NCBI GenBank assembly: GCA_009924095.1
Contig: RFSG01000002.1
Location: forward strand, 180-64,179
Source: Sphingobacteriia bacterium
GTDB lineage: Bacteria; Bacteroidota; Bacteroidia; J057; RFSG01
Direction: 5' to 3'
DNA: 64,000 bases
Made by a program: the position numbers and the translations under genes. The notes beneath the pieces were generated by a model. The model did no database searches and was not told where the DNA came from. It saw only the letters and a program-made list of their open reading frames with translations. Numbering within the stretch: the stretch's first letter is position 1; every line of letters begins with the position of its first letter. This document shows, piece by piece, positions 42,513 to 56,694 of this stretch.

Positions 42513-42520
42513 TAACTTTG
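42513..42520 (+). promoter_or_regulatory. Putative -7 promoter box TAACTTTG upstream of the 759-aa ORF
   Basis: Exact TAnnTTTG match 38 nt before ATG 42559. Confidence 0.35.
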
Positions 42521-42558: not shown

Positions 42559-44838
42559 ATGCGCGTTTCATATTTACACACTGAAATTCCGGAGATAACC
42601 TCTGATTATCTTTCGGAAGGGGATGTGGTGGTGCGGAATTTACGTTCCGTTTCCTTAACTGAAGTCATGGATGTGGCTTTGTTGACCATGCGTTTAGCCC
42701 TACGTATTGGTATCCAACGCCCCCAATCTCGTCATGAACAATTGTTGCCTTATGATCAGGATAATGATAATCTGGTATTCGATTGCCCCTTAAATTCTGC
42801 CCTCACCGGTCGAAGAATAACTTTTTTAAGAGGGTGGAAACAATTTCAAAGCTGTATTAAAGGCTTTAATAGCTTAGGGTTAATGGCAGAACAAGTTCTT
42901 AGGGAATTAACTGCTGCAGAGAAATTAGGACTTAAAGAAGTGAACGCAATCAAGCGGGAATTTTTGAAAAGTCGTAAGCAAAATTATTCGGATACGCCTG
43001 ACCAATTAGTTTTTACTTCAGCTGAAGTAGATGCCCTTACCGATCAAGATCTAACTGCACTCGACCTTTTTGATGTAATGATCTGGAAGGCGTTTGCCCG
43101 CAAAACCATTGTTTGTTCCACTTCCTCTAATATGGGGATTTCTTTACATGAAGATTTGCGCTATATGCAGCAATCATCGGTAAATGCTTTCGGTAAGAAA
43201 TTCTATTTGCTCAATATTTCGGAAGGGAATTTAATTATCTGGTGCCCTGACCGGGAAGCAGATTTTATGAATAAGGAAAAGTCTGATTTGTTAGAATCCT
43301 TAGAAGCTGAACTACCCCCATTAACGAAATTACGCACCTATATTAACCGGATTCAACGGGATCCCGGTGCATTAAGTGATGCGTTTGCTTGTGGAGGATA
43401 TTTTTTTCCAACCAATCCTCAAAGCAAAGATGAAATTCAAAATCTACTATTTTTCTCTTTAACCCAAATTGCGGCAGAACGAAAAGTAACCATTTCTGCA
43501 TTAACGCAAGATCCACATATTAAAGAGACTTTAAATAGTTTGAGATGTGAAATTCAGGAAGGTAAAATTTATGTAGATTTTGGAATTGAAGGAGGAATCA
43601 GTGGATTAATGGTTCCTTATTTAATTATGTTGGAAGAGGTGCTATCTATGCCCAAAGTAAAAGCCTTATCCACCTGGAACCAGGCTTCTATTGGAGCTGC
43701 CTTAGCTGCTGCAGTAATTGCCGATCAAATCCTCAGAAATCCTGAGGAAATGAATGAAAAAACTCGCGCTAATTTAACAACCCTATTCCCTAATATCAGC
43801 AAGTTTATTGATTTAAAGGAATTAGGAAAAGATGTGCAAACCCGTATTCATGGGCTATTCGATTTAGCCAATATTCAATCGCTTGCCCAATTATTAGGGG
43901 TAGTAGTAGAACGACATTTATCGGGTAGAGGTACCGCTTTCGTAGGACTAGGTTCTAGCTCTTATTCAAATGGTAACCGTTGTTATGAAATATTAAAGGA
44001 TAGTATGGAAGGAGATGGAAGCTTTAGAGGTAAATCTACTTTCCATCCTGCAACCCATACCTTAAATCCTTTTGCACAAGCGTTAATTTATGGGGAGGAT
44101 TTATATAAAATCATTCAACACACTAAATATAAAGCCTTAAAAACGGAAGCTGAAAGACTGAAATTTATTCAGGATCACGTTAAAAAATCAGAACCTGCCG
44201 GTGCTGCTGCAATGGCTGGATATTTATTAACTCGCCTCGATTTTGGTAATTTATCCATTATGGAAATTGCCTATCTCCTAAAATTAATGGGCTTCACCAA
44301 ACAATTGTTTTTGGAATTCAGTAAGTTTAATCCTGATGAAAAAGGATTAAACCTGTTCTTACAGGAATCTTATGAAGAAGGGGTGTATATGGGAGATTTA
44401 GCAAAGAATATTTTAATTATCCTCGATTGGCCTTTACAAGAAATTAAACGCAGAGCAGAATTAGAAAAAATTCATTCTACGCTTAAATATAAATTAAAAC
44501 CGATTGATGATTTCTGGGTAGATAATTTAGATCCTTTGGTGAATATTTATTTAACCGGAGATAATACCGCTCAGCCTTCTGATACCTTGAATTTAACACT
44601 GGTGCAACAAATGCAAGCCAATGAAAAATGGATTCAGGAATATTTAGAAGGGAATCAAAGAATGCAAGATGAACAAAGGAAATTTAATAGCATTAATTGG
44701 GTAAGTAGTTCTTTATCCGCGTTAAGTCTTAAATTAAACTCCTGGGATAAAAAAGTTAATCGTTTAATGACACGTACCTTAAATAATATTGTACAGAAGA
44801 AGGTAAGTGAGATTAGTTCTCACCCGAATCATAAATGA
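42559..44838 (+). CDS. Large hypothetical cytoplasmic protein (759 aa, no recognisable domain)
   Basis: Long uninterrupted ORF with normal amino-acid composition, no signal peptide and no TM segment. I recognise no catalytic or binding motif. Confidence 0.6.
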   Translation: MRVSYLHTEIPEITSDYLSEGDVVVRNLRSVSLTEVMDVALLTMRLALRIGIQRPQSRHEQLLPYDQDNDNLVFDCPLNSALTGRRITFLRGWKQFQSCIKGFNSLGLMAEQVLRELTAAEKLGLKEVNAIKREFLKSRKQNYSDTPDQLVFTSAEVDALTDQDLTALDLFDVMIWKAFARKTIVCSTSSNMGISLHEDLRYMQQSSVNAFGKKFYLLNISEGNLIIWCPDREADFMNKEKSDLLESLEAELPPLTKLRTYINRIQRDPGALSDAFACGGYFFPTNPQSKDEIQNLLFFSLTQIAAERKVTISALTQDPHIKETLNSLRCEIQEGKIYVDFGIEGGISGLMVPYLIMLEEVLSMPKVKALSTWNQASIGAALAAAVIADQILRNPEEMNEKTRANLTTLFPNISKFIDLKELGKDVQTRIHGLFDLANIQSLAQLLGVVVERHLSGRGTAFVGLGSSSYSNGNRCYEILKDSMEGDGSFRGKSTFHPATHTLNPFAQALIYGEDLYKIIQHTKYKALKTEAERLKFIQDHVKKSEPAGAAAMAGYLLTRLDFGNLSIMEIAYLLKLMGFTKQLFLEFSKFNPDEKGLNLFLQESYEEGVYMGDLAKNILIILDWPLQEIKRRAELEKIHSTLKYKLKPIDDFWVDNLDPLVNIYLTGDNTAQPSDTLNLTLVQQMQANEKWIQEYLEGNQRMQDEQRKFNSINWVSSSLSALSLKLNSWDKKVNRLMTRTLNNIVQKKVSEISSHPNHK

Positions 44839-44865
44839 TGAATCTTTTTTTTATGTTTAGTACAA

Positions 44866-45582
44866 ATGATTTTTGATTGCCATTGTCATATCGAAACAGG
44901 AATGGAAGCATATGATTTGGCTTCTGTTTATAAAAGAAATATTATTTTTAATCAGGTAGATCATTATAATACTTTCCTGAAACAAGTTCCGGCGGGGGAT
45001 GCTATCTCCTTGATTTTTGATTATAAACAAAATTACGATCGGGTAAAACATGCCGCAGAATCAGGCGTAATTCAGGCCTATAAAATTCATTCCCGGGAAC
45101 AAAAATTAACGCCAGATGATTTTCCTGCATTAGCCGATGCATTGGAAAAAGTTAATTCGAATATCCCCGTAATTTTTGATGCATTTTATTTTGATCATCA
45201 TTTATTATATCAACCTTATTTACCGGGTATCATTTTACTGGCGGAACGTTTTCCAGATAAAACCTTTATCGTAGCCCATGCAGGTGGAATTGAAATCTTA
45301 CGCTACTTTTTTCATTTGCGTACCCTGCCGAATATTATTTATGATTTATCTTTTTCCTTACAATATTTAGAAGATAGCTCTTTGTATTTAGATTTGATTA
45401 AGTTGATTAAATACACAGATAAATCAAAAATAATGTTTGGTACCGATTATTTTTATGCCTCTCCTAAATTTCAACTCGAAGTTATGGATGGGATTATGGA
45501 CAAACTTTCCTTAAATGCTGGTGAACGGGAAGCAATTCTGTTTAAAAATGCGGAACGTATATTTTTTAATAATCAGGTTTAA
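44866..45582 (+). CDS. Amidohydrolase-2-like TIM-barrel metal-dependent hydrolase
   Basis: 238 aa with N-terminal MIFDCHCHI (HxH metal motif), a later AHAGG, and a GTDY near the C-terminus. Lies 27 nt downstream of the 759-aa ORF. Confidence 0.65.
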   Translation: MIFDCHCHIETGMEAYDLASVYKRNIIFNQVDHYNTFLKQVPAGDAISLIFDYKQNYDRVKHAAESGVIQAYKIHSREQKLTPDDFPALADALEKVNSNIPVIFDAFYFDHHLLYQPYLPGIILLAERFPDKTFIVAHAGGIEILRYFFHLRTLPNIIYDLSFSLQYLEDSSLYLDLIKLIKYTDKSKIMFGTDYFYASPKFQLEVMDGIMDKLSLNAGEREAILFKNAERIFFNNQV

Positions 45583-45597
45583 TTTTTTTAATTGATT

Positions 45598-48009
45598 TTA
45601 TTTTGGGCGAATTCTTTTCCAGAAGAATAATAATCCAAAAAATAATAAACACCCGATTCCACTTAGGTAGGCATAAAGTTTTAAGTTGGGTGGGAAATAC
45701 CGCATTTTAATATGTTGTATTCCTTTGGGAAGATATACTCCGGATAACCCTTCATTAATCACCAATACAGATTCTTCTTTTCCATTTATAAATGCTTTCC
45801 ATCCAGCATCCCAAGTCATGGGGAGAAGTAATATGCCAGGAGCTTCCGCACGTACGATACCTTCAATATGATTTTGATCTTGATAAACTAATTTAAGTCC
45901 TTCCTGATTTAATTGATTCGTAACCTGGGTGTAAATACTGTCTGTAAATACTTCAGGATTATTTGGAGATATATAGGGCTTTAATTCTTTTTTAATCGAA
46001 TCCGGTAATCCTTCTCGAAGCACTGCCCTTAATAATATTTGATCTTTAATCGTATCTGCAAAGGTTAACAAATGTTCTTTAGGAATATATTGATGTAATA
46101 CCACGCCAAAGGGAATAGCATTTTTATTTTTCCAAACGGTCACATTGCCGGTCTTTTGAACTGGAAGGTAATTTCGCACATATTCAGGATTGGAAATACT
46201 ATCTTTCGTTAGTTTATAACGGTGTGCTGTTAAGGTTAATAATAAATCCCGATGATCTAATCCTGCTGACCAACGCGTGCCAATATCACTTTTCGGATCT
46301 GCCAATCCTAACAACGTTAAAAATCTAATGTAATATAAACTATTAAAGGAATAATACGAACTGCTATTCATATAATTCTGTGCAATTCCATCATTATAGG
46401 ATTTAATAGAATAATAGGCAGAATAATAATCTTTATCTATTCGATAAAATCCAGGGTCATGTTGATTTAACCATTTTAGGGCAAGTTGGGTGTCATCATT
46501 ATACCCTAAGGGTTGCGTAAGCATTTCCCGAGTAAGCACCCCATCCTTATTTACCGTATGTTTGCCTTGCCAGCCTAATTCCAAAACAATAAATACAAGA
46601 ATCAAAAATAAACTCCATTCGGTACGATAAATCAGTAATATTAATAAACCTAAATAAGTAAATACGAGTGCCATAACGCCCCATCTTAATTCTGGAATTA
46701 AATTGTTGGCAGCCGGGAATAGGGGACTTAACGTAAATACAATAAATACAGCAGTAATACCTATTCCTGCTTTCCATATTTTGTTAACTTTCAAAATATT
46801 GGAAAATCCATTCATCGCTAAATAAATAAAAGCGGCAATTAGGCAAAGTGATGAAGAACGAAAATAATCGCCCGCAAATCCCCAAAATAAATAGCGTAAA
46901 CCCGGAATAAATATGTGAGAAACAACAATTAAAAATATGAGTAGGTTGGATATACTCCATTTACCATTCGCTTTTTTAAACGATTGAGGAATTAATAATA
47001 AGGTAAATATTCCACAATAAAACCAAGGCGATTCAAAATAATTAAACCATCCCATAAATTCAGTTGTAGATCCTCCCAATAGTTCATTGCCATACATTCT
47101 ATACAAGGCGCTCACATAAAATTTAGGAGATTCAATTGCAAAAAAGCGTGAAAATAAATGATTAAAATAAGTAGCATCTCCTCCCACCCGTGGACTATTT
47201 AACATGAGCTCTATTACAGATCCACTAAATACCGCGGACAATAAAGCGCCAATAAATGCAACGCCTCCTAAGGTTAATACAATACGAGGAAGTTTTTTCC
47301 ATTTAAACCGATATTGGGCATAAAATCGAAAGGGGAGTACACCTAATGCCAATAATCCCCAATTATACCAAGAGAAGGGCGATAATAATCCCATGAATAC
47401 TATCGCAAACATAAATACCCAGGGGGCACGTCGTTGTAATACTAACTCCATGCCGTATAACATCATCGCTACCAATACTGCCTCTGAAGTAAATAGTTCA
47501 ATCGGACTAGAGATTAACAAATGCCCACTAAATCCAAATAATATTCCCCCAATAAGGGCTGGTAGAGGTTTAATTCCAGTTAAGGATAAAAATTCAAAAA
47601 ATAACCAGGCAGCTAGAATTAATTTAAAAGCTTCACGGTAAACAATTAATCCCGGTAATGACGTAGGATTTACCGCATCTGTAAGTAAGGCCAAAGGTGG
47701 AATTAAGGAGGATAAATACAAGGAATAAAAAGGATAATAACCCTGCCCTAAGCCTATATAAAAACTATATCCAGGATAACTTTGTGTTTTTAAATATCGA
47801 ATGGCATGCATTAAATGAGGATAGGTGAAATCTGCAGAATCCACCATATTCTTACCAAATACATATAACTTATTCCCGAAAATAAAATCATAAAAAATAA
47901 TACTATTAATCAGTAGGCCTAATAGTATTAATATTTTCCGGGGATTATCTTCTATCCAATGAATGCCAGACGATAAATAGGAAGAATTATTTATGCGGTT
48001 AGATTGCAT
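45598..48009 (-). CDS. YfhO-like GT-C fold membrane glycosyltransferase
   Basis: 803 aa with about a dozen N-terminal TM helices, a large C-terminal extracytoplasmic domain and a final TM. Architecture and N-terminal loop resemble the YfhO family. Family assignment is by recognition only. Confidence 0.6.
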   Translation of the reverse strand: MQSNRINNSSYLSSGIHWIEDNPRKILILLGLLINSIIFYDFIFGNKLYVFGKNMVDSADFTYPHLMHAIRYLKTQSYPGYSFYIGLGQGYYPFYSLYLSSLIPPLALLTDAVNPTSLPGLIVYREAFKLILAAWLFFEFLSLTGIKPLPALIGGILFGFSGHLLISSPIELFTSEAVLVAMMLYGMELVLQRRAPWVFMFAIVFMGLLSPFSWYNWGLLALGVLPFRFYAQYRFKWKKLPRIVLTLGGVAFIGALLSAVFSGSVIELMLNSPRVGGDATYFNHLFSRFFAIESPKFYVSALYRMYGNELLGGSTTEFMGWFNYFESPWFYCGIFTLLLIPQSFKKANGKWSISNLLIFLIVVSHIFIPGLRYLFWGFAGDYFRSSSLCLIAAFIYLAMNGFSNILKVNKIWKAGIGITAVFIVFTLSPLFPAANNLIPELRWGVMALVFTYLGLLILLIYRTEWSLFLILVFIVLELGWQGKHTVNKDGVLTREMLTQPLGYNDDTQLALKWLNQHDPGFYRIDKDYYSAYYSIKSYNDGIAQNYMNSSSYYSFNSLYYIRFLTLLGLADPKSDIGTRWSAGLDHRDLLLTLTAHRYKLTKDSISNPEYVRNYLPVQKTGNVTVWKNKNAIPFGVVLHQYIPKEHLLTFADTIKDQILLRAVLREGLPDSIKKELKPYISPNNPEVFTDSIYTQVTNQLNQEGLKLVYQDQNHIEGIVRAEAPGILLLPMTWDAGWKAFINGKEESVLVINEGLSGVYLPKGIQHIKMRYFPPNLKLYAYLSGIGCLLFFGLLFFWKRIRPK

Positions 48010-48063
48010 AAGCTCTGCCGTCTAATAATTCTGTAGGATGAATGCTTAATAAAAGTTTACCCT

Positions 48064-48480
48064 TTAAGAGCGAAGGGCAATACATTTAATTTCGATTTGA
48101 ACCGGAGAAGGGAAACGGCTTACTTCTACCGTTGTTCTGCAGGGACAAATATCTCCCATAATTTCACCGTACACTTTATTAAAGGATTTAAAATCTTTTT
48201 CGATACTCGTTAAAAATACCGAAACATCAATTACGTGTGCTAATGAACTTCCAGCTTCTTTTAGAATTTTTTCTAGGTTTTCAAAAATTACCCGGGTTTG
48301 AATTTCGATATCGTATGAAATTACATTTCCTTCCGGAGAAAGGGTTACGCCATGTAAGCCTTCGAGGTTTCGGGAAATTAATCCCGATACATAAATAAAA
48401 TCTCCCGTAATTCGGGCATGCGGATGAAATGCGCTGAGCGGATCAGGCAATAACGGGGTAATGACAGGTTTGTTTTCCAT
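48064..48480 (-). CDS. RidA/YjgF/UK114-family reactive-intermediate deaminase
   Basis: Typical RidA C-terminus ...PCRTTVEVSRFPSPVQIEIKCIA. The start is moved to ATG 48480 (MENKPV), 1 nt after the ATP-grasp stop. Confidence 0.82.
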   Translation of the reverse strand: MENKPVITPLLPDPLSAFHPHARITGDFIYVSGLISRNLEGLHGVTLSPEGNVISYDIEIQTRVIFENLEKILKEAGSSLAHVIDVSVFLTSIEKDFKSFNKVYGEIMGDICPCRTTVEVSRFPSPVQIEIKCIALRS

Positions 48481-48481
48481 A

Positions 48482-49675
48482 TTAGGCATATTCAATTTGA
48501 ACAGCAGCTTCAACGTGCTCTTCCATTTCAATTACTTTTTCACGATCGGTACCTGCCACAATAAAAAATCCCGGACGGTCACGACTATCTAGTACCGGAC
48601 GAATACTGTCGCCGGGTTTTAAATCCAAAGTATATTCTAATAATTGGGAAATTATATCCGGATTTACAATAATGTTTTTTACTATTCCGGGTTTAAGATT
48701 AAAAAACTTTAAGATCGCAAATTTATCTTTGTAATCTGTATAATTCACCGGTTGGGTATCTCCAATAATCTGATGAATTAATCCTTCAATAGGCATAAAA
48801 CCCGTAAGGTAAGGTAATATCTTTCCACTGATCGATCCTCCACCGCCTCTGGCTGCTATTTCCATCAAATAAGGTCTGCCTTTATGCACTTTATATTCCG
48901 CATGGGTAATTCCAAACGGTAACCCTAAGGCTTCTATTACCTTAGTATTAATATCAAATAATTGCTGCTCTAATTCTGGAGAAATATCCCCTAACCAGGT
49001 ATTTCTTTCATCAATACAATCATTACTTACATAATGGTATTTTTTAGTGAGGGCAAGATTGTAAACTTTATTATCTTGTTTATAAGCTTCAATAGAATAT
49101 TCATAACCAGAAATATATTTTTCTATTAATATTCCTCTGGATTTACTTTCATGAAAAGCACGGGCAATTAAACCATCAAAATGTTGATCTTCTAAACGAG
49201 CAACACCTTTACTTCCTTGTGAATTAATAGGCTTTACCAACCATTCTGAAGGGTGGGGTAGGGAATGGGTAAATTCTAAGGCCTCTTTGGAATCATTAAA
49301 AAAATGAAATTCGGGAATAGCTTCCTGAAAAGTATTTTTTAGCGAATCCCGCATTAAATATTTATTGGTAAACTTTAAAGCGGTTTCATACCCAATCCCG
49401 GGTAATTTTAAATTCTCTGCAATATAGGCAACGGTTGGAACAGCTACATCGGTTTGATCTGTAATAATAAAATCAATTTTATGTTTCTGCGCAGCCGCAA
49501 ACGTTTTTTCTTTATCCGTTGTATCTATTTGTTCGTAAAAATCCGCCAATGCTTTACAGGGAGGATTTTCATACATATCCGTTACCAATACCCGAAGACC
49601 TAATTCTTTGGCTTTTTTTACGAGCGGAATTTGGTTATATCCTCCGCCTACTACATGAATTAATCCGGATGCCAT
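48482..49675 (-). CDS. ATP-grasp carboxylate-amine ligase (L-amino-acid-ligase-like)
   Basis: 397 aa with an ATP-grasp layout: VKPINSQGSKGV, ILIEKYISGYEYSIE, HAEYK....PYLMEIAARGGG. Confidence 0.8.
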   Translation of the reverse strand: MASGLIHVVGGGYNQIPLVKKAKELGLRVLVTDMYENPPCKALADFYEQIDTTDKEKTFAAAQKHKIDFIITDQTDVAVPTVAYIAENLKLPGIGYETALKFTNKYLMRDSLKNTFQEAIPEFHFFNDSKEALEFTHSLPHPSEWLVKPINSQGSKGVARLEDQHFDGLIARAFHESKSRGILIEKYISGYEYSIEAYKQDNKVYNLALTKKYHYVSNDCIDERNTWLGDISPELEQQLFDINTKVIEALGLPFGITHAEYKVHKGRPYLMEIAARGGGGSISGKILPYLTGFMPIEGLIHQIIGDTQPVNYTDYKDKFAILKFFNLKPGIVKNIIVNPDIISQLLEYTLDLKPGDSIRPVLDSRDRPGFFIVAGTDREKVIEMEEHVEAAVQIEYA

Positions 49676-49736
49676 TTATTTATTGATGAGAGGGAAAGTT
49701 GTACAAAAAGGAAAATTATTTATTTTAAAAGCGTCA

Positions 49737-50426
49737 CTATTCTCCACGCAATGTATGTTGTTGCTTATAAGCGTTGAAGATCGTATCTGAAGTTTCAAAT
49801 GAATCATCTTTATTTAAAAATAAAGAAAATTCAAATGGGAAATAATCATTACGTAATACAAAATTACGGGTAAGCGATAAAGCTAAGGTAACCATTTCTT
49901 CCGGACGAGTATTAAAGATTAAGTCTTCATGATAATCTACCCGATCGGTAATAAAATTCGAAGCTAATCCTTTATTGCAATTTTCAAAAGCTTTACTGAT
50001 TACCTGACGAATAAAATCATAATTATTTCCATTCACCAATTTAAAATTAAATAGTCCGGAAATGATTACGTAATCATATTTACGTGTTAAGGTATCATTA
50101 ATAAAATCACCTAAGGTTAATTCAAAATTGGGATGATGTCCATATTTTTCTTTTCCAGTATCGGCAAGGGCAGGTACTAATTCAAACCCATGATAATAAC
50201 CGATTTTATCTGGGCCAATAAATTGAAAGAAATCCCCAAAGCCAGCACCAATATCTAACACACTTGCGCCTTTAAAATCCCATAAGGAAGCTAACACTTC
50301 GAAGCGAATTTCTTGTCGCCCTTTTTCTCCCCAGCCTAAAGCTTTTTGAGAATATCCAAAGTCATTAAATCGTTGCGTATATCTAGCAACTACTTTTTCT
50401 TTATCGGCATCTGAAAAGGTACTCAT
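49737..50426 (-). CDS. Class I SAM-dependent methyltransferase
   Basis: 229 aa with motif I VLDIGAGFGDF. Confidence 0.75.
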   Translation of the reverse strand: MSTFSDADKEKVVARYTQRFNDFGYSQKALGWGEKGRQEIRFEVLASLWDFKGASVLDIGAGFGDFFQFIGPDKIGYYHGFELVPALADTGKEKYGHHPNFELTLGDFINDTLTRKYDYVIISGLFNFKLVNGNNYDFIRQVISKAFENCNKGLASNFITDRVDYHEDLIFNTRPEEMVTLALSLTRNFVLRNDYFPFEFSLFLNKDDSFETSDTIFNAYKQQHTLRGE

Positions 50427-51568
50427 CCTTGTATCCAGTTTAAAAAGGTTTGATAACTATATTGATCCACTGCAAAACTAATCCGATACCAAGTTGCAAA
50501 GCTTTCTCCATAGGCAATACCTGGTACTACGGCAATTTTATTTTCTTCTAATAATCGTAAGGCAAAAGGAAGGGAAGGTTCATTCGCATTTATAAAAAAA
50601 TAAAATGCACCCTCCGGACGAATAAAAGTAATTCCTTTTTTATCTAAAATATCGGAAAGTTCATGATATCTCTGCTGATATTCCGCCACCATTTCCGTAT
50701 AAATATTTTCATGTATTGCCCGATCTCTTAATCCTACCATAGCGGCATATTGACTAAATGTGCTTACATGGGTAATTGAATTGGTGGACAGGGTAAGCAT
50801 GGTATTTAAAAAATCGGAGGGAAGAATGGCATACCCAATTCTCCATCCCGTCATGGCATAGGTTTTAGAAAAACTATTTACATACAATATTAAATCTGAA
50901 TATTGTTTTGCAGCAGGCGTGGATAGACCTTTTGTAAATCCTGGAACAAAAGATATTTGATCATACACCTCATCTAATAAAACATAAATTCCTCTTTCTC
51001 CTGCAATGGAAATTAATTCTTGTAATTCTTTAGCTGAATAAATAACGCCTGAAGGATTTCCAGGATTATTGAGAATTAATAATCGGGTATTGGGGTGAAT
51101 ATGAGATAATAGTTGTTCAGCCGTTAATCTCCCTTGGGATTCTAAAGTAGAAATTCTAGTTACCGAAGCACCTGCAAGAATAGCCATATTGGCATATTGC
51201 GGCCAAGCTGGATCTACAATAATTACTTCTTCGCCCTCTTTAATTAAAGTTTGAAGAATAGAATAAATGGCATGAGAGGCGCCTTGGGTAATAATAAAAT
51301 TTTCAGGGCTAAAAGATAAATTCCATTTATACTGATACCATTGCGATAATGCTTTTCTTAATTCAGGTATTCCTTGAGAAGTGCTATAAGAAGTTAGATT
51401 TTTTGCCAATCCTTCGCTAGCAGCTGCTTTAATATATTCAGGAGTTGGGAACATAGGCTCTCCAGATTGTAAAGCAGCAACAGTAATTCCCGAAGCTTTT
51501 AAGGCTCTTACCCGATCCGCAATCGCAATGGCTGCAGGGGGTTCAATATGCGCTAATCTTGGATTCAT
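50423..51568 (-). CDS. PLP-dependent aminotransferase, class I/II (AspC-like, not DegT-like)
   Basis: SFSKTYAMTGWRIGY (PLP lysine motif) and NPGNPSG. ATG 51568 gives an ATGA overlap with the upstream gene; the track start is 51580. Confidence 0.85.
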   Translation of the reverse strand: MNPRLAHIEPPAAIAIADRVRALKASGITVAALQSGEPMFPTPEYIKAAASEGLAKNLTSYSTSQGIPELRKALSQWYQYKWNLSFSPENFIITQGASHAIYSILQTLIKEGEEVIIVDPAWPQYANMAILAGASVTRISTLESQGRLTAEQLLSHIHPNTRLLILNNPGNPSGVIYSAKELQELISIAGERGIYVLLDEVYDQISFVPGFTKGLSTPAAKQYSDLILYVNSFSKTYAMTGWRIGYAILPSDFLNTMLTLSTNSITHVSTFSQYAAMVGLRDRAIHENIYTEMVAEYQQRYHELSDILDKKGITFIRPEGAFYFFINANEPSLPFALRLLEENKIAVVPGIAYGESFATWYRISFAVDQYSYQTFLNWIQG

Positions 51569-52476
51569 TTTCCCTCCCAAATGGCTAAGCCTAATCCTGT
51601 TTTTCCAAAATTATTTCCATTATATACCATGTATCTTCTTCCGCCATGATCAAACACATAATTATATTCTATCATTTCACTATCCCAGCCTTCAGCAGAA
51701 ACATCAATGCCTACTTCATGATCTTTACGCTCGTAAATATTTCCATCTTTCGATTCTGCATATCCAATTCTATAACTAGTCCCTCTATGCGAATACCATA
51801 ATTTATAAATACCCCTTTCTTGAATTAACATCGGCTTACCAATGATATGCTCGTCATCCCCTTCATAATTAATGACAACACTTTTATCCCGATGCCATTC
51901 AATCCCATCTTTCGACCAAGCAAATTTTAAATTATACCAAGGTTTATTTTTTCCAGCCGCATGTTCCCATTTGTCAAATGCAGTGTAATACATTTTCCAA
52001 ATTTCATCTTCAATAAATACGCAACAAGAGCCGGAACCAAAAGGTTCTGCCTTACTACGATCGAGAATTGGCACCTGACTTACTCGATGAAAGGTTTTTC
52101 CTCCATCTTCACTAATGGCTAATCCAGTGAAATTTTGAAATCTATTTAATCCCCCATTTACCCATCCCACATAATACATATAAATTTTATTTTCATGATA
52201 TACTAACCAAGGATAGGATACTCCACTTTCATCAAAGGTTCCTAATTCCCCAACATCATAAATAGGGTCAGCAGCAATATGGGTGATTTTCGCTGTTTCT
52301 CCAGATAAATGTAAATCTGCAATACCAATACGGGATACGTTATTTAAATCTCTACCCGTAATATAAATCTGTAAGGTGCCCTCTGATTGCGTAACAAAGC
52401 TAGGTCCTACATGACTTGCCAGCCAATATATATCCGATTGCGGGGGGACAATAACGCCCAATTTTTTCCAAGTCAT
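51565..52476 (-). CDS. Beta-propeller protein, GH43/32/DUF377-like fold (function unknown)
   Basis: 303 aa with repeated W.KYY / G....RIG.A.S.DG blades reminiscent of five-bladed propeller glycosidase or glycosylase families. No confident catalytic assignment. Confidence 0.45.
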   Translation of the reverse strand: MTWKKLGVIVPPQSDIYWLASHVGPSFVTQSEGTLQIYITGRDLNNVSRIGIADLHLSGETAKITHIAADPIYDVGELGTFDESGVSYPWLVYHENKIYMYYVGWVNGGLNRFQNFTGLAISEDGGKTFHRVSQVPILDRSKAEPFGSGSCCVFIEDEIWKMYYTAFDKWEHAAGKNKPWYNLKFAWSKDGIEWHRDKSVVINYEGDDEHIIGKPMLIQERGIYKLWYSHRGTSYRIGYAESKDGNIYERKDHEVGIDVSAEGWDSEMIEYNYVFDHGGRRYMVYNGNNFGKTGLGLAIWEGK

Positions 52477-52504
52477 AATTAATTAATAAATATTAAAATT
52501 AAGA

Positions 52505-53119
52505 TTAAGATTCCTCTCCATGTCTTCTGAATAACAGTTTTGCTTTTTCAGGACCAATTACACTGTGACTCGGAAATTCACTATCAATTACTGAATTTGC
52601 GCCCACCACACAGTTTTGTCCTAATTGGGTTCCGGCTAAAACCGCAGCACCCGCACCAATCCAAGAACCTTTTCCAATACGAACCGGTTTTCCGGGTTTA
52701 TTGGGTTGTTGAATGATGGGAATTTCAGGATGCGAAAAAGTATGATTATTATCTCCCACAAATATCCTTTCCGATAATAATACATTGTTTTCCAAAATTA
52801 CTGATCGGGTAGAAGACAGTAATAAATATCTCCCAATTTGTACTTCATTTCCGATAATAATTTCAGAGTCATATAAATAATCTTCTGGTTTCACATCCCC
52901 TCTCCACCGGGGATCTATATACTGAATTAATTCCGTTAAATCCTGATACGCATGAATAAAGGCACCTTCCCGAATACTGGTTTTATCTCCAATCGAAATA
53001 CGATGTGGATTTAATATCCGAAATGGTGGACGTATTTTTGCCCCTTCCCCAAAATAGGCAAATAATTTCTTTTCTTCCGTGGTTAAAGGAGTGTCTTTTT
53101 CAATTAGAATATTATTCAT
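52505..53119 (-). CDS. Left-handed beta-helix (hexapeptide-repeat) acetyltransferase
   Basis: 204 aa with hexapeptide repeats (IGKGSWIGAGAAVLAGTQLGQNCVVGANSVI). Confidence 0.8.
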   Translation of the reverse strand: MNNILIEKDTPLTTEEKKLFAYFGEGAKIRPPFRILNPHRISIGDKTSIREGAFIHAYQDLTELIQYIDPRWRGDVKPEDYLYDSEIIIGNEVQIGRYLLLSSTRSVILENNVLLSERIFVGDNNHTFSHPEIPIIQQPNKPGKPVRIGKGSWIGAGAAVLAGTQLGQNCVVGANSVIDSEFPSHSVIGPEKAKLLFRRHGEES

Positions 53120-54083
53120 GCGAAGGTTTTTGCAAGTTTACTTTTTCCTTAATTAAATATAAAGGACGTCGTTTGGTTTCTAAATATATTTTCTCCAAAT
53201 AAATTCCAATAATTCCCAATACCGATAAAATTAATCCGGTGGAAAAGGCAACTAAAATTGCCAAACTTGTCCAGCCGGGTAGGGAAGTGCCGGTAATTAA
53301 TTTTAACAATAGAATATAAATTCCAAAGCCAAAAGAGAAAAAGGAAAATAAAAATCCAATATATAAAGAGAATTTTAATAATAAGGAAGAATGTGCAATT
53401 ATTCCAATGAGCGCTAGATTTAATCGTTTAGAAAAAGTATAGGAACTTTTACCAAATTCTCTTTCTACATGTTCAATGGGAATACCCACAATTTTAAATC
53501 CTACATGTCGAAGTAATGAAGAAATATGCCGCGCTTGTTCTCTAAATTGACAAACACTTTCTCTCACTTCAGCAGAGATAATATAAAAACTTAAATTTTC
53601 GGTTTTAAATTTATTTTGGGCTAAGCGATCATATAAATTAAAATATACTTTTCGCATTTGCTGATATAACCAAGATTTATCTCCCCGAAATTCTGCTACG
53701 GCATACACAATGTCATATCCTTCCATTGCTTTGGCATATAATTTCGTTATTTCTTCAGGTGGATCTTGTAAATCACAATCCATTACCACTGTCCATTTTC
53801 CACGGGCAAAATCAAGGCCCGCAGAAATGGCAAAATGTTGGCCGAAGTTTCGAGAAAAATGTATGCCTTTAATCTTAGGATTTTCTTTGCCTAACTGTTT
53901 TACTACATTCCAGGAATCATCCGGACTAAAATCATTTACCAGAATAATTTCATATTCAGTGGTAATAGGATTTAGGGTTTGGATTAAACGACTCGTTAAG
54001 GCGATGAGGCATTCCGCACAACCATAAACGGGTACAACAACTGATATTTCTGGAGATGCCAATTGGCTAAGGTTTTCAGCCAT
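53112..54083 (-). CDS. GT2 polyprenyl-phosphate glycosyltransferase (GtrB/ArnC/CsbB-like)
   Basis: 323 aa with ISVVVPVYG, VNDFSPDDS, DCDLQDPPE (DxD region) and two C-terminal TM helices. This architecture is typical of the Und-P sugar transferases in three-component glycosylation systems. Confidence 0.82.
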   Translation of the reverse strand: MAENLSQLASPEISVVVPVYGCAECLIALTSRLIQTLNPITTEYEIILVNDFSPDDSWNVVKQLGKENPKIKGIHFSRNFGQHFAISAGLDFARGKWTVVMDCDLQDPPEEITKLYAKAMEGYDIVYAVAEFRGDKSWLYQQMRKVYFNLYDRLAQNKFKTENLSFYIISAEVRESVCQFREQARHISSLLRHVGFKIVGIPIEHVEREFGKSSYTFSKRLNLALIGIIAHSSLLLKFSLYIGFLFSFFSFGFGIYILLLKLITGTSLPGWTSLAILVAFSTGLILSVLGIIGIYLEKIYLETKRRPLYLIKEKVNLQKPSHE

Positions 54084-54876
54084 TCCCTAAATCAAGTGCG
54101 TTGGCAATGGCATTATTGGTGCTAAGTTTATTGATGGCAAACAACATCATCCATCTACCTTCAAACGACAACCAATCTTCTTTTTTATGCTCGTCAATGA
54201 TTTCAACTCCATGCGGAATGCGGGCATTAAAATATACCACATCTCCAGGGTCGGCTTCTGCATCTAAATAGATCTTTTCTCCATTGGCAGTTTCGGCATA
54301 TACACCACCCGTTTCAAAGTCAACGCCTTTTTTCGACATGATCATAATAGGAACACATAACTGATGATGATCCACCGGATCAATATGTTTATTTAATCCC
54401 CCTACACTTTTAGGATAAAATTGGAAGGCAATTCTGGATACACAATCTTCTTCAGGGGTTTGGCCTAAAAATTTATCTTTTGGATTATGGCTTAATACAT
54501 TTTTGATTTGATAGGTCTCACGCGCTACCTCAAAAAAGTTGAACATATCCTGATTCCAGGGGAAAAATACAAATTGATGAAAGCAGGCTTTTACGTAGGA
54601 ACGAGGGTCCCAACGGTTCATTCTGTGGAAGTTAGGGCATCCCATCTCAATCGGTTTATAATTCGGTAAAGAAGAATTTCCGATACGGGTTAAGTACGTT
54701 TTTACTTGTTGTACCCATTCCGGGCTACAAACCTGTTTTGCTATAAACACTTCCCCCTGAATAATTTTTTCCCGAATTTCTTCAGCATATTCAGGGTTAG
54801 TCAAAATTTGAGAAGGATTCTCCAACGTTTTGAGGCGGGTGGCGAAAATGTTTTCCGTAATTGCCTGATTTTCCAT
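54076..54876 (-). CDS. Hypothetical protein with HxD...H motif (possible Fe(II)/2OG dioxygenase fold)
   Basis: 266 aa. NKHIDPVD and, about 55 residues later, RIPHGVE could form a 2-His-1-carboxylate facial triad. The assignment is tentative. Confidence 0.4.
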   Translation of the reverse strand: MENQAITENIFATRLKTLENPSQILTNPEYAEEIREKIIQGEVFIAKQVCSPEWVQQVKTYLTRIGNSSLPNYKPIEMGCPNFHRMNRWDPRSYVKACFHQFVFFPWNQDMFNFFEVARETYQIKNVLSHNPKDKFLGQTPEEDCVSRIAFQFYPKSVGGLNKHIDPVDHHQLCVPIMIMSKKGVDFETGGVYAETANGEKIYLDAEADPGDVVYFNARIPHGVEIIDEHKKEDWLSFEGRWMMLFAINKLSTNNAIANALDLGNG

Positions 54877-54933
54877 AGTAATTTTGATTTAGCGTTTATG
54901 GAGTGAGGATAGGGGGAAGCCTACTCTGTATTG

Positions 54934-54941
54934 CAAACTTA
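54934..54941 (-). promoter_or_regulatory. Putative -7 box (TAAGTTTG on minus strand) for the nine-gene operon
   Basis: The reverse complement of CAAACTTA fits TAnnTTTG, 57 nt upstream of ATG 54876. Confidence 0.3.
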
Positions 54942-56342: not shown

Positions 56343-56694
56343 CTATTCAAAATTATCCTCTATTCTTTTTTTATCTTTCTTCTCTTTGTCGCTCTTATGA
56401 TACAATTCAATAAATATAATTTTTTGTTGATCAGGAAAGTGAGCATAAATTAATCTTAATTCTGAATTTACTCCTTTACCTTTTAATGCCTTACTAACAA
56501 TTTTCTTAACTTTAGTAATACAAGATTTTATGCCTAAATTTTTAATTCTAAAACTAAAGGGAGGACTATCTCCTGGCTCATCACTCAGATCTAATTTTAC
56601 CACTTCTAAATCATCTTTGAACGTTCGATATTTTTTAAAAGATTTTTAAATCCTTTTTAAATTCCGATAATTCATCAAATTCAATATTATTCAT
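56343..56694 (-). pseudogene. RelE/ParE-superfamily-like toxin, interrupted by a 1-nt frameshift
   Basis: ATG 56694 opens MNNIEFDELSEFKKDLKIF*, with its stop at 56637..56635. The +1 frame, open from 56645, continues KSFKKYRTFKDDLEVVKLDL...GKGVNSELRLIYAHFPDQQKIIFIELYHKSDKE.... Removing one A from the A5 run (56647..56643) gives one 116-aa ORF. The track shows only GTG 56603 onward. Confidence 0.6.

What the first reader, a model, noticed from the sequence alone, without database searches (positions are those of the whole stretch)
45598..54941. Nine-gene operon joining a polyprenyl-phosphate GT2 and a YfhO-like GT-C transferase with amino-acid-type tailoring enzymes
Seen in sequence:
- Nine same-strand genes are packed with 4-16 nt start/stop overlaps or gaps of 61 nt or less: 54076/54083, 53112/53119, 51565/51568, 50423/50426, 48480/48482.
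- Gene order is: HxD...H oxygenase-like protein, GT2 with two C-terminal TM helices, LbH acetyltransferase, beta-propeller protein, AspC-class aminotransferase, SAM methyltransferase, ATP-grasp ligase, RidA, and an 803-aa YfhO-like polytopic protein.

Established knowledge:
- GtrB/CsbB/ArnC-type GT2 enzymes load a sugar on undecaprenyl phosphate. A GT-C enzyme (GtrC, YfhO, ArnT) then transfers it outside the cytoplasm.
- YfhO partners are best known from Gram-positive teichoic acid glycosylation.

Inference:
- The donor and transfer enzymes bracket a module that looks like amino-acid chemistry, not sugar chemistry: a class I aminotransferase rather than DegT, an L-amino-acid-ligase-like ATP-grasp, and RidA, which quenches enamines made by PLP enzymes.
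- This suggests an aminoacyl- or peptide-decorated, methylated or acetylated glycosyl unit built on a lipid carrier and attached to an envelope polymer in a diderm Bacteroidota cell.
- The acetyltransferase plus the convergent amidohydrolase (44866..45582) would parallel the protect, transfer, deprotect logic of ArnA/ArnC/ArnD.
- No GtrA-like flippase is visible.
- I know of no characterised system with this composition.
Basis: partly seen in the sequence, partly recalled or inferred. Interest (0 to 1): 0.75.

Follow-up and report, generated by a model that had tools for sequence, protein, structure and literature searches.

The report
Amino-acid-tailored lipid-linked sugar modification cassette
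This is an uncharacterised gene cassette, found patchily in many bacterial phyla, that most likely builds an amino-acid-decorated sugar on a lipid carrier for attachment to the cell surface; it includes a previously unrecognised family of vitamin-B6-type enzymes.

Summary
They are a 2OG oxygenase fold, a GtrB/ArnC-type GT2, an LbH acetyltransferase, a GH130-like propeller, a class I aminotransferase, a SAM methyltransferase, an LAL-type ATP-grasp, RidA and YfhO.

The unit is drawn wrongly, though. Comparison with about 125 related loci shows a recurring cassette that includes the two convergent genes at 42559-45582. These are a 759-aa protein with no Pfam match and a PF04909 amidohydrolase. 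The 759-aa protein models confidently as a divergent fold-type II PLP enzyme.

YfhO is not part of the recurring cassette. It appears only in near-identical relatives. Other loci carry different polytopic membrane proteins next to the GT2, one of them a PMT_2 GT-C.

The PLP protein and RidA travel together. They are mutually exclusive with an HMGL-type aldolase (49 versus 16 loci, none with both).

Best reading: a horizontally mobile module makes an unusual amino acid through a 2-oxo or imino acid. It ligates that amino acid (ATP-grasp) to a sugar carried on polyprenyl phosphate (GT2). A host-specific GT-C, here YfhO, transfers the product outside the cytoplasm.

The sugar, the amino acid and the acceptor are all unknown. 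The Arn-like protect/deprotect parallel is not supported for this window. No published description was found.

The parts
42559..44838 (+). 759-aa soluble protein ('PLP759'): a new, isolated family with a fold-type II PLP-enzyme core plus a long helical C-terminal part. K101 is the candidate Schiff-base lysine.
   Evidence: No Pfam, NCBIfam or PDB sequence hit. 201 homologues at about 50% identity across phyla. Only 103 representatives among 1.84 billion clusters. AF2 pLDDT 86.7, pTM 0.88. All top Foldseek PDB hits are Thr synthase, Ser racemase, Thr deaminase or DAP ammonia-lyase (E 2e-4, target TM about 0.6). K101 is kept in 11 of 12 distant relatives.
44866..45582 (+). PF04909 (Amidohydro_2) metal-dependent hydrolase/decarboxylase-type protein, co-transcribed with PLP759.
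   Evidence: Pfam 2.5e-13. Present in 13 of 14 ATP-grasp/PLP759 cassettes. Lies directly after PLP759 in 7 loci. Profile hits 3cjp and ACMSD-type enzymes.
45598..48009 (-). YfhO-family polytopic membrane protein (803 aa), the presumed GT-C transferase. This is the host-specific, non-conserved slot of the cassette.
   Evidence: PF09586 at 158 bits. 11 hydrophobic segments. Found only in near-identical relatives L052 and L055. Distant YfhO-like paralogues follow the cassette in the Melainabacteria locus L020 and in the metagenome locus L061.
48064..48531 (-). RidA (Rid family imine/enamine deaminase). The start is more likely 48489 or 48480.
   Evidence: Pfam 85 bits; TIGR00004 at 79 bits is below its cut-off of 106. 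The Arg of the 'R-T-T-V-E-V' motif is present in the sequence. Co-occurs only with PLP759.
48482..49675 (-). L-amino-acid-ligase-type ATP-grasp enzyme.
   Evidence: ATP-grasp_4 and LAL_C2 above gathering score. PDB hits 4dim (2.6e-19) and the LAL BL00235 (5e-14). Lies directly upstream of (RidA-)PLP759 in 11 of 13 other cassettes.
49737..50426 (-). Class I SAM-dependent methyltransferase-like protein (229 aa).
   Evidence: Weak Methyltransf_12/25 hits. VLDIGAGFG motif in the sequence. Homologues in 8 of 14 cassettes.
50423..51580 (-). Class I (AspC-type) PLP aminotransferase. The start is probably 51568.
   Evidence: PF00155 5e-63; nearest models are archaeal Asp aminotransferase and GntC, both below cut-off. 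Present in 4 of 14 cassettes; other loci carry DegT-type aminotransferases or, in type B, an ELFV dehydrogenase.
51565..52476 (-). GH130-like five-bladed beta-propeller (303 aa).
   Evidence: NCBIfam beta-1,2-mannobiose phosphorylase 1e-9, below cut-off. Profile versus PDB: 9fj8 3.7e-11 and 7fip 2.6e-9, partial coverage. In 11 of 14 cassettes and 23 of 33 oxygenase-anchored loci.
52505..53119 (-). Left-handed beta-helix acetyltransferase of the WbbJ/WcaF (O-acetyltransferase) type.
   Evidence: Hexapep 3e-13; WbbJ 1e-21; WcaF 4e-17. Close homologues in only 3 of 14 cassettes.
53112..54083 (-). Polyprenyl-phosphate glycosyltransferase (GT2, GtrB/ArnC/PgfS type) with D102-C-D104 and C-terminal membrane helices.
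   Evidence: Co-occurs with the oxygenase in 43 loci.
54076..54876 (-). Fe(II)/2-oxoglutarate dioxygenase-fold protein (266 aa) from a family with no Pfam model.
   Evidence: Invariant H164, D166, H222 and R241. AF2 pLDDT 91.5. Foldseek top hits AndA, DAOCS and IPNS at E about 4e-8.
54934..54941 (-). TAAGTTTG, a match to the Bacteroidota -7 promoter motif TAnnTTTG, 58 nt upstream of the first start codon. It is only a candidate operon promoter. A second copy starts at 42513 on the + strand, 46 nt before PLP759.
   Evidence: The motif also occurs 8 times inside the operon, so the match alone is not significant.

Best explanation
The locus is an 11-gene cassette in two convergent transcription units (42559-45582 on + and 54876-45598 on -). 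It is the Sphingobacteriia version of a horizontally mobile surface-glycan decoration module.

Proposed mechanism:
1. The GtrB/ArnC-type GT2 loads a sugar from a nucleotide sugar onto polyprenyl (undecaprenyl) phosphate at the cytoplasmic face.
2. A soluble sub-pathway makes a non-standard amino acid. The fold-type II PLP-like 759-aa protein eliminates a beta-substituent from an amino acid to give an enamine/imine. RidA hydrolyses that to a 2-oxo acid. The SAM methyltransferase and the 2OG oxygenase modify the skeleton. The class I aminotransferase re-aminates it.
3. The LAL-type ATP-grasp forms an amide bond between this amino acid and the sugar, or a sugar-borne amine or carboxylate.
4. The LbH O-acetyltransferase, the PF04909 hydrolase and the GH130-like protein add further tailoring. 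Their roles are unassigned.
5. After flipping by an unidentified factor, the YfhO GT-C enzyme transfers the decorated sugar to an envelope polymer or protein outside the cytoplasm.

Shown here: the folds and families of all eleven proteins, the recurrence of the cassette across phyla, the RidA-PLP759 coupling, the PLP759/aldolase alternation and the non-conservation of YfhO.

Inferred: every substrate, the order of steps, the attachment of the amino acid to the sugar and the acceptor.
For: Family and fold assignments.

Cassette recurrence. Among 14 loci from Nitrospira, Planctomycetes, Melainabacteria, Gammaproteobacteria, Oligoflexia, Actinobacteria, Rhodospirillaceae and Bacteroidota, the counts are: PLP759 14, ATP-grasp 14, amidohydrolase 13, propeller 11, GT2 9, oxygenase 9, methyltransferase 8, DegT 8, RidA 5, class I aminotransferase 4 and LbH 3.

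Independent anchor. In 33 metagenome loci of 8 kb or more anchored on the oxygenase, the counts are: ATP-grasp 26, propeller 23, GT2 21 and methyltransferase 15.

Genomic setting. The cassettes sit in polysaccharide loci alongside NeuB, DegT, WbpB-like, Asn-synthase, GT4 and Wzy_C genes.

Membrane partners. GT2-containing loci of 15 kb or more carry a large polytopic protein in 15 of 21 cases, against 3 of 25 loci without GT2 (Fisher p = 5e-5). One is a PMT_2 GT-C above the gathering score (L053). Several lie 9-201 nt from the GT2.

Keto/imino-acid logic.
- RidA is found only with PLP759: 8 of 8 informative loci, and 0 with HMGL.
- PLP759 (49 loci) and an HMGL/DmpG-type 2-oxo-acid aldolase (16 loci) never co-occur.
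- PLP759 lies next to an ELFV amino-acid dehydrogenase in type B loci.
- One relative has the PLP759 module fused in the slot of the glutaminase domain of glutamate synthase.
- Other relatives are fused to an adenylating domain.
- An amino-acid permease flanks the Nitrospira cassette.

Established knowledge:
- GtrB/ArnC/CsbB enzymes make polyprenyl-P-sugars that GT-C enzymes (GtrC, ArnT, YfhO) transfer outside the cytoplasm.
- RidA quenches enamines and imines from fold-type II PLP eliminases such as IlvA.
- Keto-acid methylation followed by transamination is the known route to beta-methyl amino acids.
- ATP-grasp amidoligases decorate capsule sugars in Campylobacter.
Against: - YfhO is not conserved with the cassette. 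Its partnership with the GT2 rests on operon membership in this lineage and on the Firmicutes precedent.
- GT2 is absent within 10 kb in some otherwise complete cassettes (L038, L042) and in 12 of 33 oxygenase-anchored loci. The soluble enzymes can therefore exist without it.
- Most polytopic neighbours have no Pfam or NCBIfam match and no detectable profile similarity to YfhO. Some are clearly transporters or Wzy-like.
- The PLP assignment rests on a predicted structure with modest TM-scores and no sequence-level link to PALP.
- PF04909 and GH130-like roles are unassigned.
- No sugar-nucleotide gene, flippase or acceptor is identifiable in the window.
- Co-occurrence sets are anchor-biased and built with simple tblastn thresholds.
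Confidence: 0.45

Rival explanations
1. Two unrelated systems happen to be interleaved. One is a simple GT2/YfhO pair that adds a plain sugar to an envelope polymer. The other is a soluble pathway (PLP759, RidA, aminotransferase, methyltransferase, oxygenase, ATP-grasp, amidohydrolase) that makes a free dipeptide-like or amino-acid-derived small molecule, as L-amino-acid-ligase clusters do for bacilysin, dapdiamide or rhizocticin.
For: - The ATP-grasp is of the LAL type, with weak matches to DdaF and BacD models.
- Some cassettes lack GT2 within 10 kb (L038, L042).
- MFS and amino-acid permease genes flank some cassettes.
- YfhO is not conserved.
Against: - GT2 is interleaved with the soluble genes, often adjacent to the oxygenase, in 43 loci from many phyla.
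- A glycoside-active-fold protein (GH130-like) is a core member.
- The cassettes sit inside polysaccharide loci.
- DegT sugar aminotransferases, formyltransferases and carbamoyltransferases accompany them.
Confidence: 0.17
2. The 759-aa protein is not a supplier of carbon skeleton. It is a glutamine-independent nitrogen donor: a PLP-dependent ammonia-lyase that, with RidA, releases NH3 from serine or threonine-like substrates. It hands the NH3 to the adjacent ATP-grasp, which amidates a carboxylate (for example a uronic acid to a uronamide) on the sugar later carried by the GT2.
For: Every recurrent partner of the family can be read as an ammonia-consuming enzyme:
- an ATP-grasp immediately upstream in 11 of 13 cassettes;
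- fusion to an adenylating domain;
- adjacency to an ELFV dehydrogenase;
- one relative in which the module occupies the position of the glutaminase domain of glutamate synthase.

RidA accelerates the very step that releases NH3 (established knowledge). The structural neighbours are ammonia-lyases and deaminases.
Against: - There is no precedent for a PLP-based amidotransferase subunit.
- Many of the same polysaccharide loci already carry Asn-synthase-type amidotransferases.
- The alternation with an HMGL-type aldolase fits a shared carbon product (a 2-oxo acid) better than a shared nitrogen product.
- No complex or tunnel was modelled.
Confidence: 0.15
3. This is an Arn/Lgm/Flm-like cationic amino-sugar modification. 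An N-acylated amino sugar is loaded on undecaprenyl phosphate by the GT2 and deacylated by the amidohydrolase. A GT-C then transfers it to lipid A or LPS core to alter surface charge. The other enzymes are accessory.
For: - The GT2 aligns full-length with ArnC.
- In other loci the cassette carries DegT aminotransferases (8 of 14), a formyltransferase (3 loci), a small EamA-like membrane protein (L054) and a PMT_2/ArnT-family protein (L053).
- The amidohydrolase is nearly universal in the PLP759 cassettes.
Against: - The window has no DegT, formyltransferase, ArnA-like dehydrogenase, PF01522 deformylase, PMT_2 or EamA-like gene.
- Its LbH enzyme resembles O-acetyltransferases.
- PF04909 relatives are decarboxylases and lactonases.
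- This reading leaves the conserved ATP-grasp, PLP759, oxygenase and propeller unexplained.
Confidence: 0.12

Closest known systems
Three-component polyprenyl-phosphate glycosylation systems (GtrA/GtrB/GtrC of Shigella phages; CsbB/GtcA/YfhO and GtlA/GtlB of Bacillus and Listeria; PgfS/PgfM of Streptococcus mutans; GacI/GacL)
   Same: A GtrB/ArnC-type GT2 with C-terminal membrane helices and a GT-C-class polytopic protein (YfhO) share one operon. As with GtrC, the GT-C slot varies between hosts while the donor-making part is kept.
   Different: No flippase gene is present. Nine extra soluble enzymes of amino-acid-type chemistry are embedded in the unit. The host is a diderm Bacteroidota organism, whereas YfhO has been studied in Firmicutes teichoic acid glycosylation (PMC5836110, PMC8035078; listed). 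The donor sugar and acceptor are unknown.
Campylobacter jejuni HS:2 capsule glucuronamide pathway (Cj1435-Cj1438) and TupA-like ATP-grasp amidoligases such as WemR
   Same: An ATP-grasp amidoligase, together with PLP enzymes that make the amine partner, decorates a surface-polysaccharide sugar by amide-bond formation (PMC11800379; PMC13419641).
   Different: [quoted passage not shown] The enzyme here is LAL-type (ATP-grasp_4 plus LAL_C2) and is linked to a polyprenyl-P GT2. The partner enzymes (fold-type II PLP-like protein, RidA, 2OG oxygenase, GH130-like, PF04909) have no counterpart in that pathway.
Arn pathway (ArnA-ArnF, ArnT) and related lipid A amino-sugar systems (LgmABC, FlmF/NaxD/FlmK)
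   Same: An ArnC-like GT2 is present, together with a hydrolase that could act on the lipid-linked sugar. Some related loci have DegT, a formyltransferase, PMT_2 and a small EamA-like protein.
   Different: The window lacks ArnA, ArnB, ArnD, ArnT and ArnE/F equivalents. The hydrolase belongs to a different family (PF04909). The acetyltransferase is of the O-acetyltransferase type.
IlvA/serine dehydratase plus RidA paradigm; fold-type II PLP enzymes (threonine synthase, serine racemase, DAP ammonia-lyase)
   Same: The predicted core fold of the 759-aa protein matches these enzymes. RidA is genetically coupled to it.
   Different: There is no sequence-level similarity to PALP. The protein is twice as long, with a helical C-terminal part. 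The family is small and isolated. Its fusions to adenylating and glutamate-synthase domains are not known for classical members.
L-amino acid ligases (BacD/YwfE, BL00235, RizA, DdaF)
   Same: The domain architecture is the same, and the best solved relatives are of this type.
   Different: All scores are far below the equivalog cut-offs. The genomic context is polysaccharide rather than peptide antibiotic.

Membership tests
Polyprenyl-phosphate glycosyltransferases (GtrB/ArnC/DPM1-type GT2) | GT-A catalytic domain with a DXD motif | tested here: met
   PF00535 8.5e-29. D102-C-D104 is seen in the translation.
Polyprenyl-phosphate glycosyltransferases (GtrB/ArnC/DPM1-type GT2) | Full-length similarity to characterised members, including the juxtamembrane and C-terminal transmembrane part | tested here: met
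   Residues 8-314 align to GtrB 5ekp (3.9e-59) and 12-316 to ArnC 9hwj (4.9e-43). PgfS and ArnC models are covered end to end but below the equivalog cut-offs. Hydrophobic segments lie at 223-297.
Polyprenyl-phosphate glycosyltransferases (GtrB/ArnC/DPM1-type GT2) | Uses polyprenyl phosphate as acceptor | not testable with these tools
   Needs an enzyme assay with C55-P and UDP-sugars.
YfhO family (PF09586), GT-C class | Match to the family profile above the curated threshold | tested here: met
   158.4 bits against 28.5, covering residues 33-664.
YfhO family (PF09586), GT-C class | Polytopic N-terminal membrane domain, a large extracytoplasmic C-terminal part and a final helix | tested here: met
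   10 hydrophobic segments between residues 25 and 478 and one at 776-798, from a simple hydropathy scan.
YfhO family (PF09586), GT-C class | GT-C fold with a catalytic acidic residue in the first outer loop | not tested
No solved YfhO sequence was found. Acidic residues (V-D-S-A-D-F) follow the first helix in the sequence.
YfhO family (PF09586), GT-C class | Conserved genetic partnership with the GT2 of this cassette | tested here: not met
   The partnership is seen only in 96-98% identical relatives (L052, L055) by tblastn. Distant YfhO-like paralogues occur in L020 and L061.
Fold-type II PLP-dependent enzymes (PALP, PF00291) | Sequence match to the family | tested here: not met
   No Pfam hit at E up to 10. 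No PDB sequence hit with the profile.
Fold-type II PLP-dependent enzymes (PALP, PF00291) | Characteristic two-domain alpha/beta fold | tested here: met
   The AF2 model (pLDDT 86.7) matches only fold-type II enzymes among the top 50 PDB hits: E from 1.8e-4, probability 0.44-1.00 (1.00 for the leading hits), target TM 0.34-0.64.
Fold-type II PLP-dependent enzymes (PALP, PF00291) | Schiff-base lysine and PLP binding | tested here: inconclusive
   K101 (S-C-I-K-G) is invariant among close relatives and kept in 11 of 12 distant ones. It starts a helix after a strand, as in the family. No residue-level structural superposition was available.
RidA subfamily of the Rid/YjgF/YER057c family | Family profile match and the arginine needed for imine deaminase activity | tested here: met
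   PF01042 at 85 bits. TIGR00004 at 79 bits is below its cut-off of 106. Arg is present in C-R-T-T-V-E-V (its equivalence to E. coli RidA R105 comes from my own knowledge).
Fe(II)/2-oxoglutarate dioxygenases | HxD...H facial triad, a 2OG-binding Arg and the jelly-roll fold | tested here: met
   H164, D166, H222 and R241 are invariant in 28 sequences. Foldseek hits are exclusively 2OG dioxygenases and IPNS. No Pfam match.
GH130 (beta-mannoside phosphorylases/hydrolases) | Profile match over the whole propeller, with catalytic and phosphate-binding residues | tested here: inconclusive
   Matches are partial: residues 135-258 to 9fj8 at 3.7e-11. The NCBIfam score of 38 bits is far below the cut-off of 450. 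Catalytic residues were not mapped.
Arn (L-Ara4N lipid A modification) pathway | ArnA (dehydrogenase/formyltransferase), ArnB (DegT), ArnD (PF01522 deformylase), ArnT (PMT_2) and ArnE/F | tested here: not met
   None of these families is found in window 36-60 kb. Only the ArnC-like GT2 is present.
L-amino acid ligases (ATP-grasp) | ATP-grasp core plus the LAL C-terminal domain | tested here: met
   PF13535 at 41.6 bits (cut-off 27) and PF18603 at 37.8 bits (cut-off 29.4). PDB LAL hits. Substrates were not tested.

The most novel reading that the evidence does not exclude
The 759-aa family is a new kind of nitrogen- or imine-donating module. It would be a PLP-dependent lyase that replaces the glutaminase domain of amidotransferases and feeds NH3 (or a 2-imino acid) directly to an ATP-grasp, an adenylating enzyme, an amino-acid dehydrogenase or a glutamate-synthase-type reductase. 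In this cassette it would drive a glutamine-independent amidation or amination of a lipid-linked sugar decoration.
Probability: 0.15. Interest if true: 0.85.

Novelty: new variant of a known kind. Interest (0 to 1): 0.62.

Why it matters
Lipid-linked 'add-on' glycosylation (Gtr, Arn, CsbB/YfhO) is a main route by which bacteria change surface antigenicity, phage receptors and antimicrobial resistance. The known systems transfer plain or minimally modified sugars.

This cassette would show that an elaborate amino-acid-derived substituent can be built into such a donor. It would also show that the donor-making part moves between phyla while the membrane transferase is swapped to suit the host.

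The cassette exposes three enzyme families with no Pfam model. One is an isolated branch of fold-type II PLP-like proteins, whose fusions hint at an unrecognised way of coupling PLP elimination chemistry to ATP-dependent ligation or reductive amination.

It also gives YfhO-family proteins of Bacteroidota, so far unstudied, a concrete and testable donor pathway.

Tried and rejected
- Sequence searches for the 759-aa protein found nothing: Pfam and NCBIfam at E up to 10, PDB with a single sequence and with a profile, and hhalign against CysK. Only the predicted fold was informative.
- Literature searches found no description of this cassette: YfhO + ATP-grasp + aminotransferase; ATP-grasp + GH130 + glycosyltransferase and related terms; LAL + O-antigen; YfhO + Bacteroidetes. 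The Iyer et al. 2009 amidoligase survey is not held.
- I tried to show that the unannotated polytopic neighbours of the GT2 in other loci are GT-C or YfhO-like. Pfam, NCBIfam and hhalign gave nothing beyond one PMT_2 hit above threshold and two weak ones. Some neighbours are an amino-acid permease, an MFS transporter, an ammonium transporter or Wzy-like, so the polytopic-protein enrichment is only indirect support.
- Sigma-70 promoter and terminator scans were uninformative: fewer promoter-like sites than in shuffles, and this is a Bacteroidota organism. TAnnTTTG is too frequent to be decisive.
- I rejected the idea that the 759-aa protein is a membrane GT-C, my first guess from its size. It has no hydrophobic segments.
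- I rejected direct homology between this ATP-grasp and Cj1438C. That enzyme is TupA-like.

Full report
**Observation.** Between 45598 and 54876 the minus strand carries nine ORFs.

Pfam and NCBIfam confirm seven of the nine domain calls outright:
- GT2;
- hexapeptide acetyltransferase, closest to WbbJ/WcaF;
- class I aminotransferase;
- weak class I methyltransferase (VLDIGAGFG motif in the sequence);
- ATP-grasp_4 plus LAL_C2;
- RidA;
- YfhO (158 bits against a cut-off of 28.5).

The 303-aa 'propeller' matches GH130 beta-1,2-mannan phosphorylases only partially. The profile E-value is 3.7e-11 over residues 135-258.

The first gene has no Pfam match. Even so, H164, D166, H222 and R241 are invariant in 28 homologues. 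Its AF2 model (pLDDT 91.5) hits only Fe(II)/2OG dioxygenases and IPNS.

The GT2 aligns end to end with the solved GtrB (5ekp, 3.9e-59) and ArnC (9hwj, 4.9e-43) structures. It also has C-terminal hydrophobic segments.

It is the first base of TAAGTTTG, a match to the Bacteroidota TAnnTTTG promoter motif. That motif also occurs inside the genes, so it proves nothing by itself.

Exact-sequence look-up places the window in a Sphingobacteriia MAG (NBV12552-NBV12568). There, YfhO and the 759-aa protein are annotated 'hypothetical'.

**What the unit really is.** The ATP-grasp has hundreds of homologues at 50-65% identity in very different phyla. In the first contexts I fetched (a Bacteroidetes MAG, Melainabacteria and Nitrospira), most of the nine genes recur. 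YfhO does not.

What does recur is homologues of the two convergent plus-strand genes. These are the 759-aa ORF at 42559-44838 (52-58% identical across phyla) and the PF04909 amidohydrolase at 44866-45582.

A scan of one genome per species with the 759-aa alignment gave 44 loci. ORF clustering of the 14 loci that also hold the ATP-grasp gave these counts:

| Component | Loci (of 14) |
|---|---|
| PLP759 | 14 |
| ATP-grasp | 14 |
| Amidohydrolase | 13 |
| Propeller | 11 |
| GT2 | 9 |
| Oxygenase | 9 |
| Methyltransferase | 8 |
| DegT aminotransferase | 8 |
| RidA | 5 |
| Class I aminotransferase | 4 |
| LbH | 3 |

The usual gene string is ATP-grasp > (RidA) > PLP759 > amidohydrolase. In the window that string is broken: the PLP759-amidohydrolase pair is inverted and YfhO lies between. 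A 97% identical relative has the same arrangement.

An independent scan anchored on the oxygenase gave 33 metagenome loci of 8 kb or more. Of these, 26 have an ATP-grasp, 23 the propeller, 21 the GT2 and 15 the methyltransferase. Only the 98% identical relative has YfhO.

The recurrent module is therefore oxygenase + GT2 + propeller + ATP-grasp (+ methyltransferase), with variable additions. The window's cassette has 11 genes, not nine.

**The 759-aa protein.**
- It is soluble.
- It has no Pfam, NCBIfam or PDB sequence match.
- It belongs to a small, isolated family: 103 representatives among 1.84 billion clusters.
- The family has very strong internal conservation.
- Its AF2 model is confident (pLDDT 86.7, pTM 0.88).
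- All 50 best PDB matches are fold-type II PLP enzymes: threonine synthase, serine racemase, threonine and serine deaminases, DAP ammonia-lyase and cysteine synthase.
- K101 is the candidate Schiff-base lysine. It sits at the start of a helix after a strand, in the motif S-C-I-K-G. It is invariant among close homologues and kept in 11 of 12 distant ones.

I could not obtain a residue-level superposition, so PLP binding remains inferred.

**Clues to chemistry from gene context.**
- RidA is found in 10 loci. Eight also have PLP759. The other two are truncated before the place where it would lie. None has the HMGL aldolase.
- PLP759 (49 loci) and an HMGL/DmpG-type 2-oxo-acid aldolase (16 loci) never occur together. 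This suggests they are alternative ways to supply the same kind of intermediate.
- In a second cassette type (Verrucomicrobia, Elusimicrobia and others), PLP759 lies next to a Glu/Leu/Phe/Val-type amino-acid dehydrogenase and an adenylating enzyme, to which it is sometimes fused.
- In one distant relative the whole module is fused in front of the central, FMN and GXGXG domains of glutamate synthase. That is the position normally held by the glutaminase domain.
- An amino-acid permease flanks the Nitrospira cassette.

Together with the fold, these points fit a beta-eliminating lyase. Its enamine/imine product, or the NH3 it releases, would pass to RidA plus an aminotransferase, to a dehydrogenase, or to an ATP-dependent ligase.

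**Link to the membrane steps.** GT2 co-occurs with the oxygenase in 43 loci and is often directly adjacent to it.

Loci of 15 kb or more that contain the GT2 carry a large polytopic protein (at least 400 aa and 8 hydrophobic segments) in 15 of 21 cases. Loci without the GT2 do so in 3 of 25 cases (Fisher p = 5e-5).

These membrane proteins belong to many unrelated families:
- YfhO in the window;
- distant YfhO-like triplicates in a Melainabacteria locus;
- a PMT_2 protein above the gathering score in a Bacteroidota-like locus;
- several 560-650-aa proteins lying 9-201 nt from the GT2, with no family match at all.

Some are plainly transporters or Wzy-like, so the enrichment is only indirect support. 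It fits the Gtr pattern of a conserved donor-making part with a host-specific transferase. It does not prove that pattern.

**Most likely mechanism and its rivals.** I favour, at about 0.45, a surface-glycan decoration module that works as follows:
1. The GT2 puts a sugar on polyprenyl phosphate.
2. PLP759, RidA, methyltransferase, oxygenase and aminotransferase make an unusual amino acid through a 2-oxo acid.
3. The LAL-type ATP-grasp joins that amino acid to the sugar by an amide bond.
4. YfhO transfers the unit outside the cytoplasm.

The roles of the PF04909 hydrolase, the GH130-like protein and the O-acetyltransferase-like LbH enzyme are open.

Rivals:
- Two independent systems interleaved (0.17). 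This is favoured by cassettes without a GT2 (L038, L042) and by the LAL type of the ligase.
- PLP759 as a glutamine-independent nitrogen donor for an ATP-grasp amidation (0.15). This is favoured by the fusion and adjacency pattern. It is disfavoured by the alternation with the aldolase.
- An Arn-like amino-sugar system (0.12). Some relatives carry DegT, a formyltransferase, PMT_2 and a small EamA-like protein. The window has none of these.

**Comparison with known systems.**
- The frame is that of the GtrB/GtrC, ArnC/ArnT and CsbB/YfhO systems.
- The decoration logic has a partial precedent in the Campylobacter HS:2 glucuronamide pathway and other TupA-like ATP-grasp amidoligases. Those ligases belong to a different ATP-grasp family and are not tied to a polyprenyl-P GT2.
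- The window's cassette fails the Arn membership test on every component except the GT2.

No paper describing this cassette was found. I rate it a new variant of a known kind, with three member families that lack any curated model.

**Limits.**
- All substrates are unknown.
- Co-occurrence counts come from anchor-biased sets with simple tblastn thresholds and a hydropathy-based membrane call.
- Operon continuity is inferred from spacing only.
- The PLP assignment rests on a predicted structure.

Noticed in passing
window 55049-56305 (+), compared with L052 2215-3984: A Schlafen AlbA_2 + HATPase_c_4 gene lies divergent from the operon's first gene. In the 97% identical relative this gene is absent and a DUF7619/Por_Secre_tail (T9SS cargo) gene occupies the slot. 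The stretch just upstream of the operon is therefore strain-variable.
   Followed up: partly
window 56343-57496 (-): A 269-aa HTH + SocA_Panacea protein is followed by a small 86-aa ORF (56343-56603). This looks like a Panacea-type antitoxin/toxin pair. A similar pair (271 aa + 120 aa) is kept in the relative L052.
   Followed up: no
P0406 (1640 aa): A distant relative of the 759-aa protein is fused in front of the Glu_syn_central, Glu_synthase (FMN) and GXGXG domains. It sits where glutamate synthase normally has its glutaminase domain. Its genomic context could not be fetched.
   Followed up: partly
L006, L007, L010-L021 and others (type B loci): A second cassette type is built around the 759-aa family. 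It carries an ELFV amino-acid dehydrogenase, an AMP-binding enzyme (separate or fused), an 83-aa ORF (possible carrier protein), an LbH-like protein, Antibiotic_NAT/DUF2172, methyltransferases, PhyH or Cyclase, and sometimes CTP_transf_3. It occurs in the cultured Brevifollis gellanilyticus NBRC 108608 (L016).
   Followed up: partly
L053 8174-9187, L054 15163-16218 and 14 further loci: An HMGL/DmpG-type aldolase is present in 16 cassettes. All 16 lack both the 759-aa gene and RidA. Most of them also carry a more divergent ATP-grasp (28-36% identity).
   Followed up: partly
L023 10633-11400, L036, L038; L014 12907-14706, L008, L020: A formyltransferase (PF00551) and a carbamoyltransferase (PF02543/PF16861) each recur in three cassettes. 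This suggests alternative N- or O-acyl caps on the product.
   Followed up: no
L054 18641-18955: A 104-aa EamA/TMEM234-like membrane protein lies next to the DegT gene of the aldolase-type cassette in a 5.26-Mb genome. It is reminiscent of the ArnE/F flippase subunits. The window has no equivalent.
   Followed up: no
L110 15445-16818: An ammonium transporter (PF00909, 2.7e-113) lies about 2.5 kb from the GT2 in one oxygenase-anchored locus. This is a single case and possibly a coincidence.
   Followed up: no
window 59108-59680 (+) and 61194-63104 (+): A 190-aa protein has a eukaryote-type RRM_1 RNA-recognition motif (1.9e-11). A 636-aa ORF has no Pfam match.
   Followed up: no
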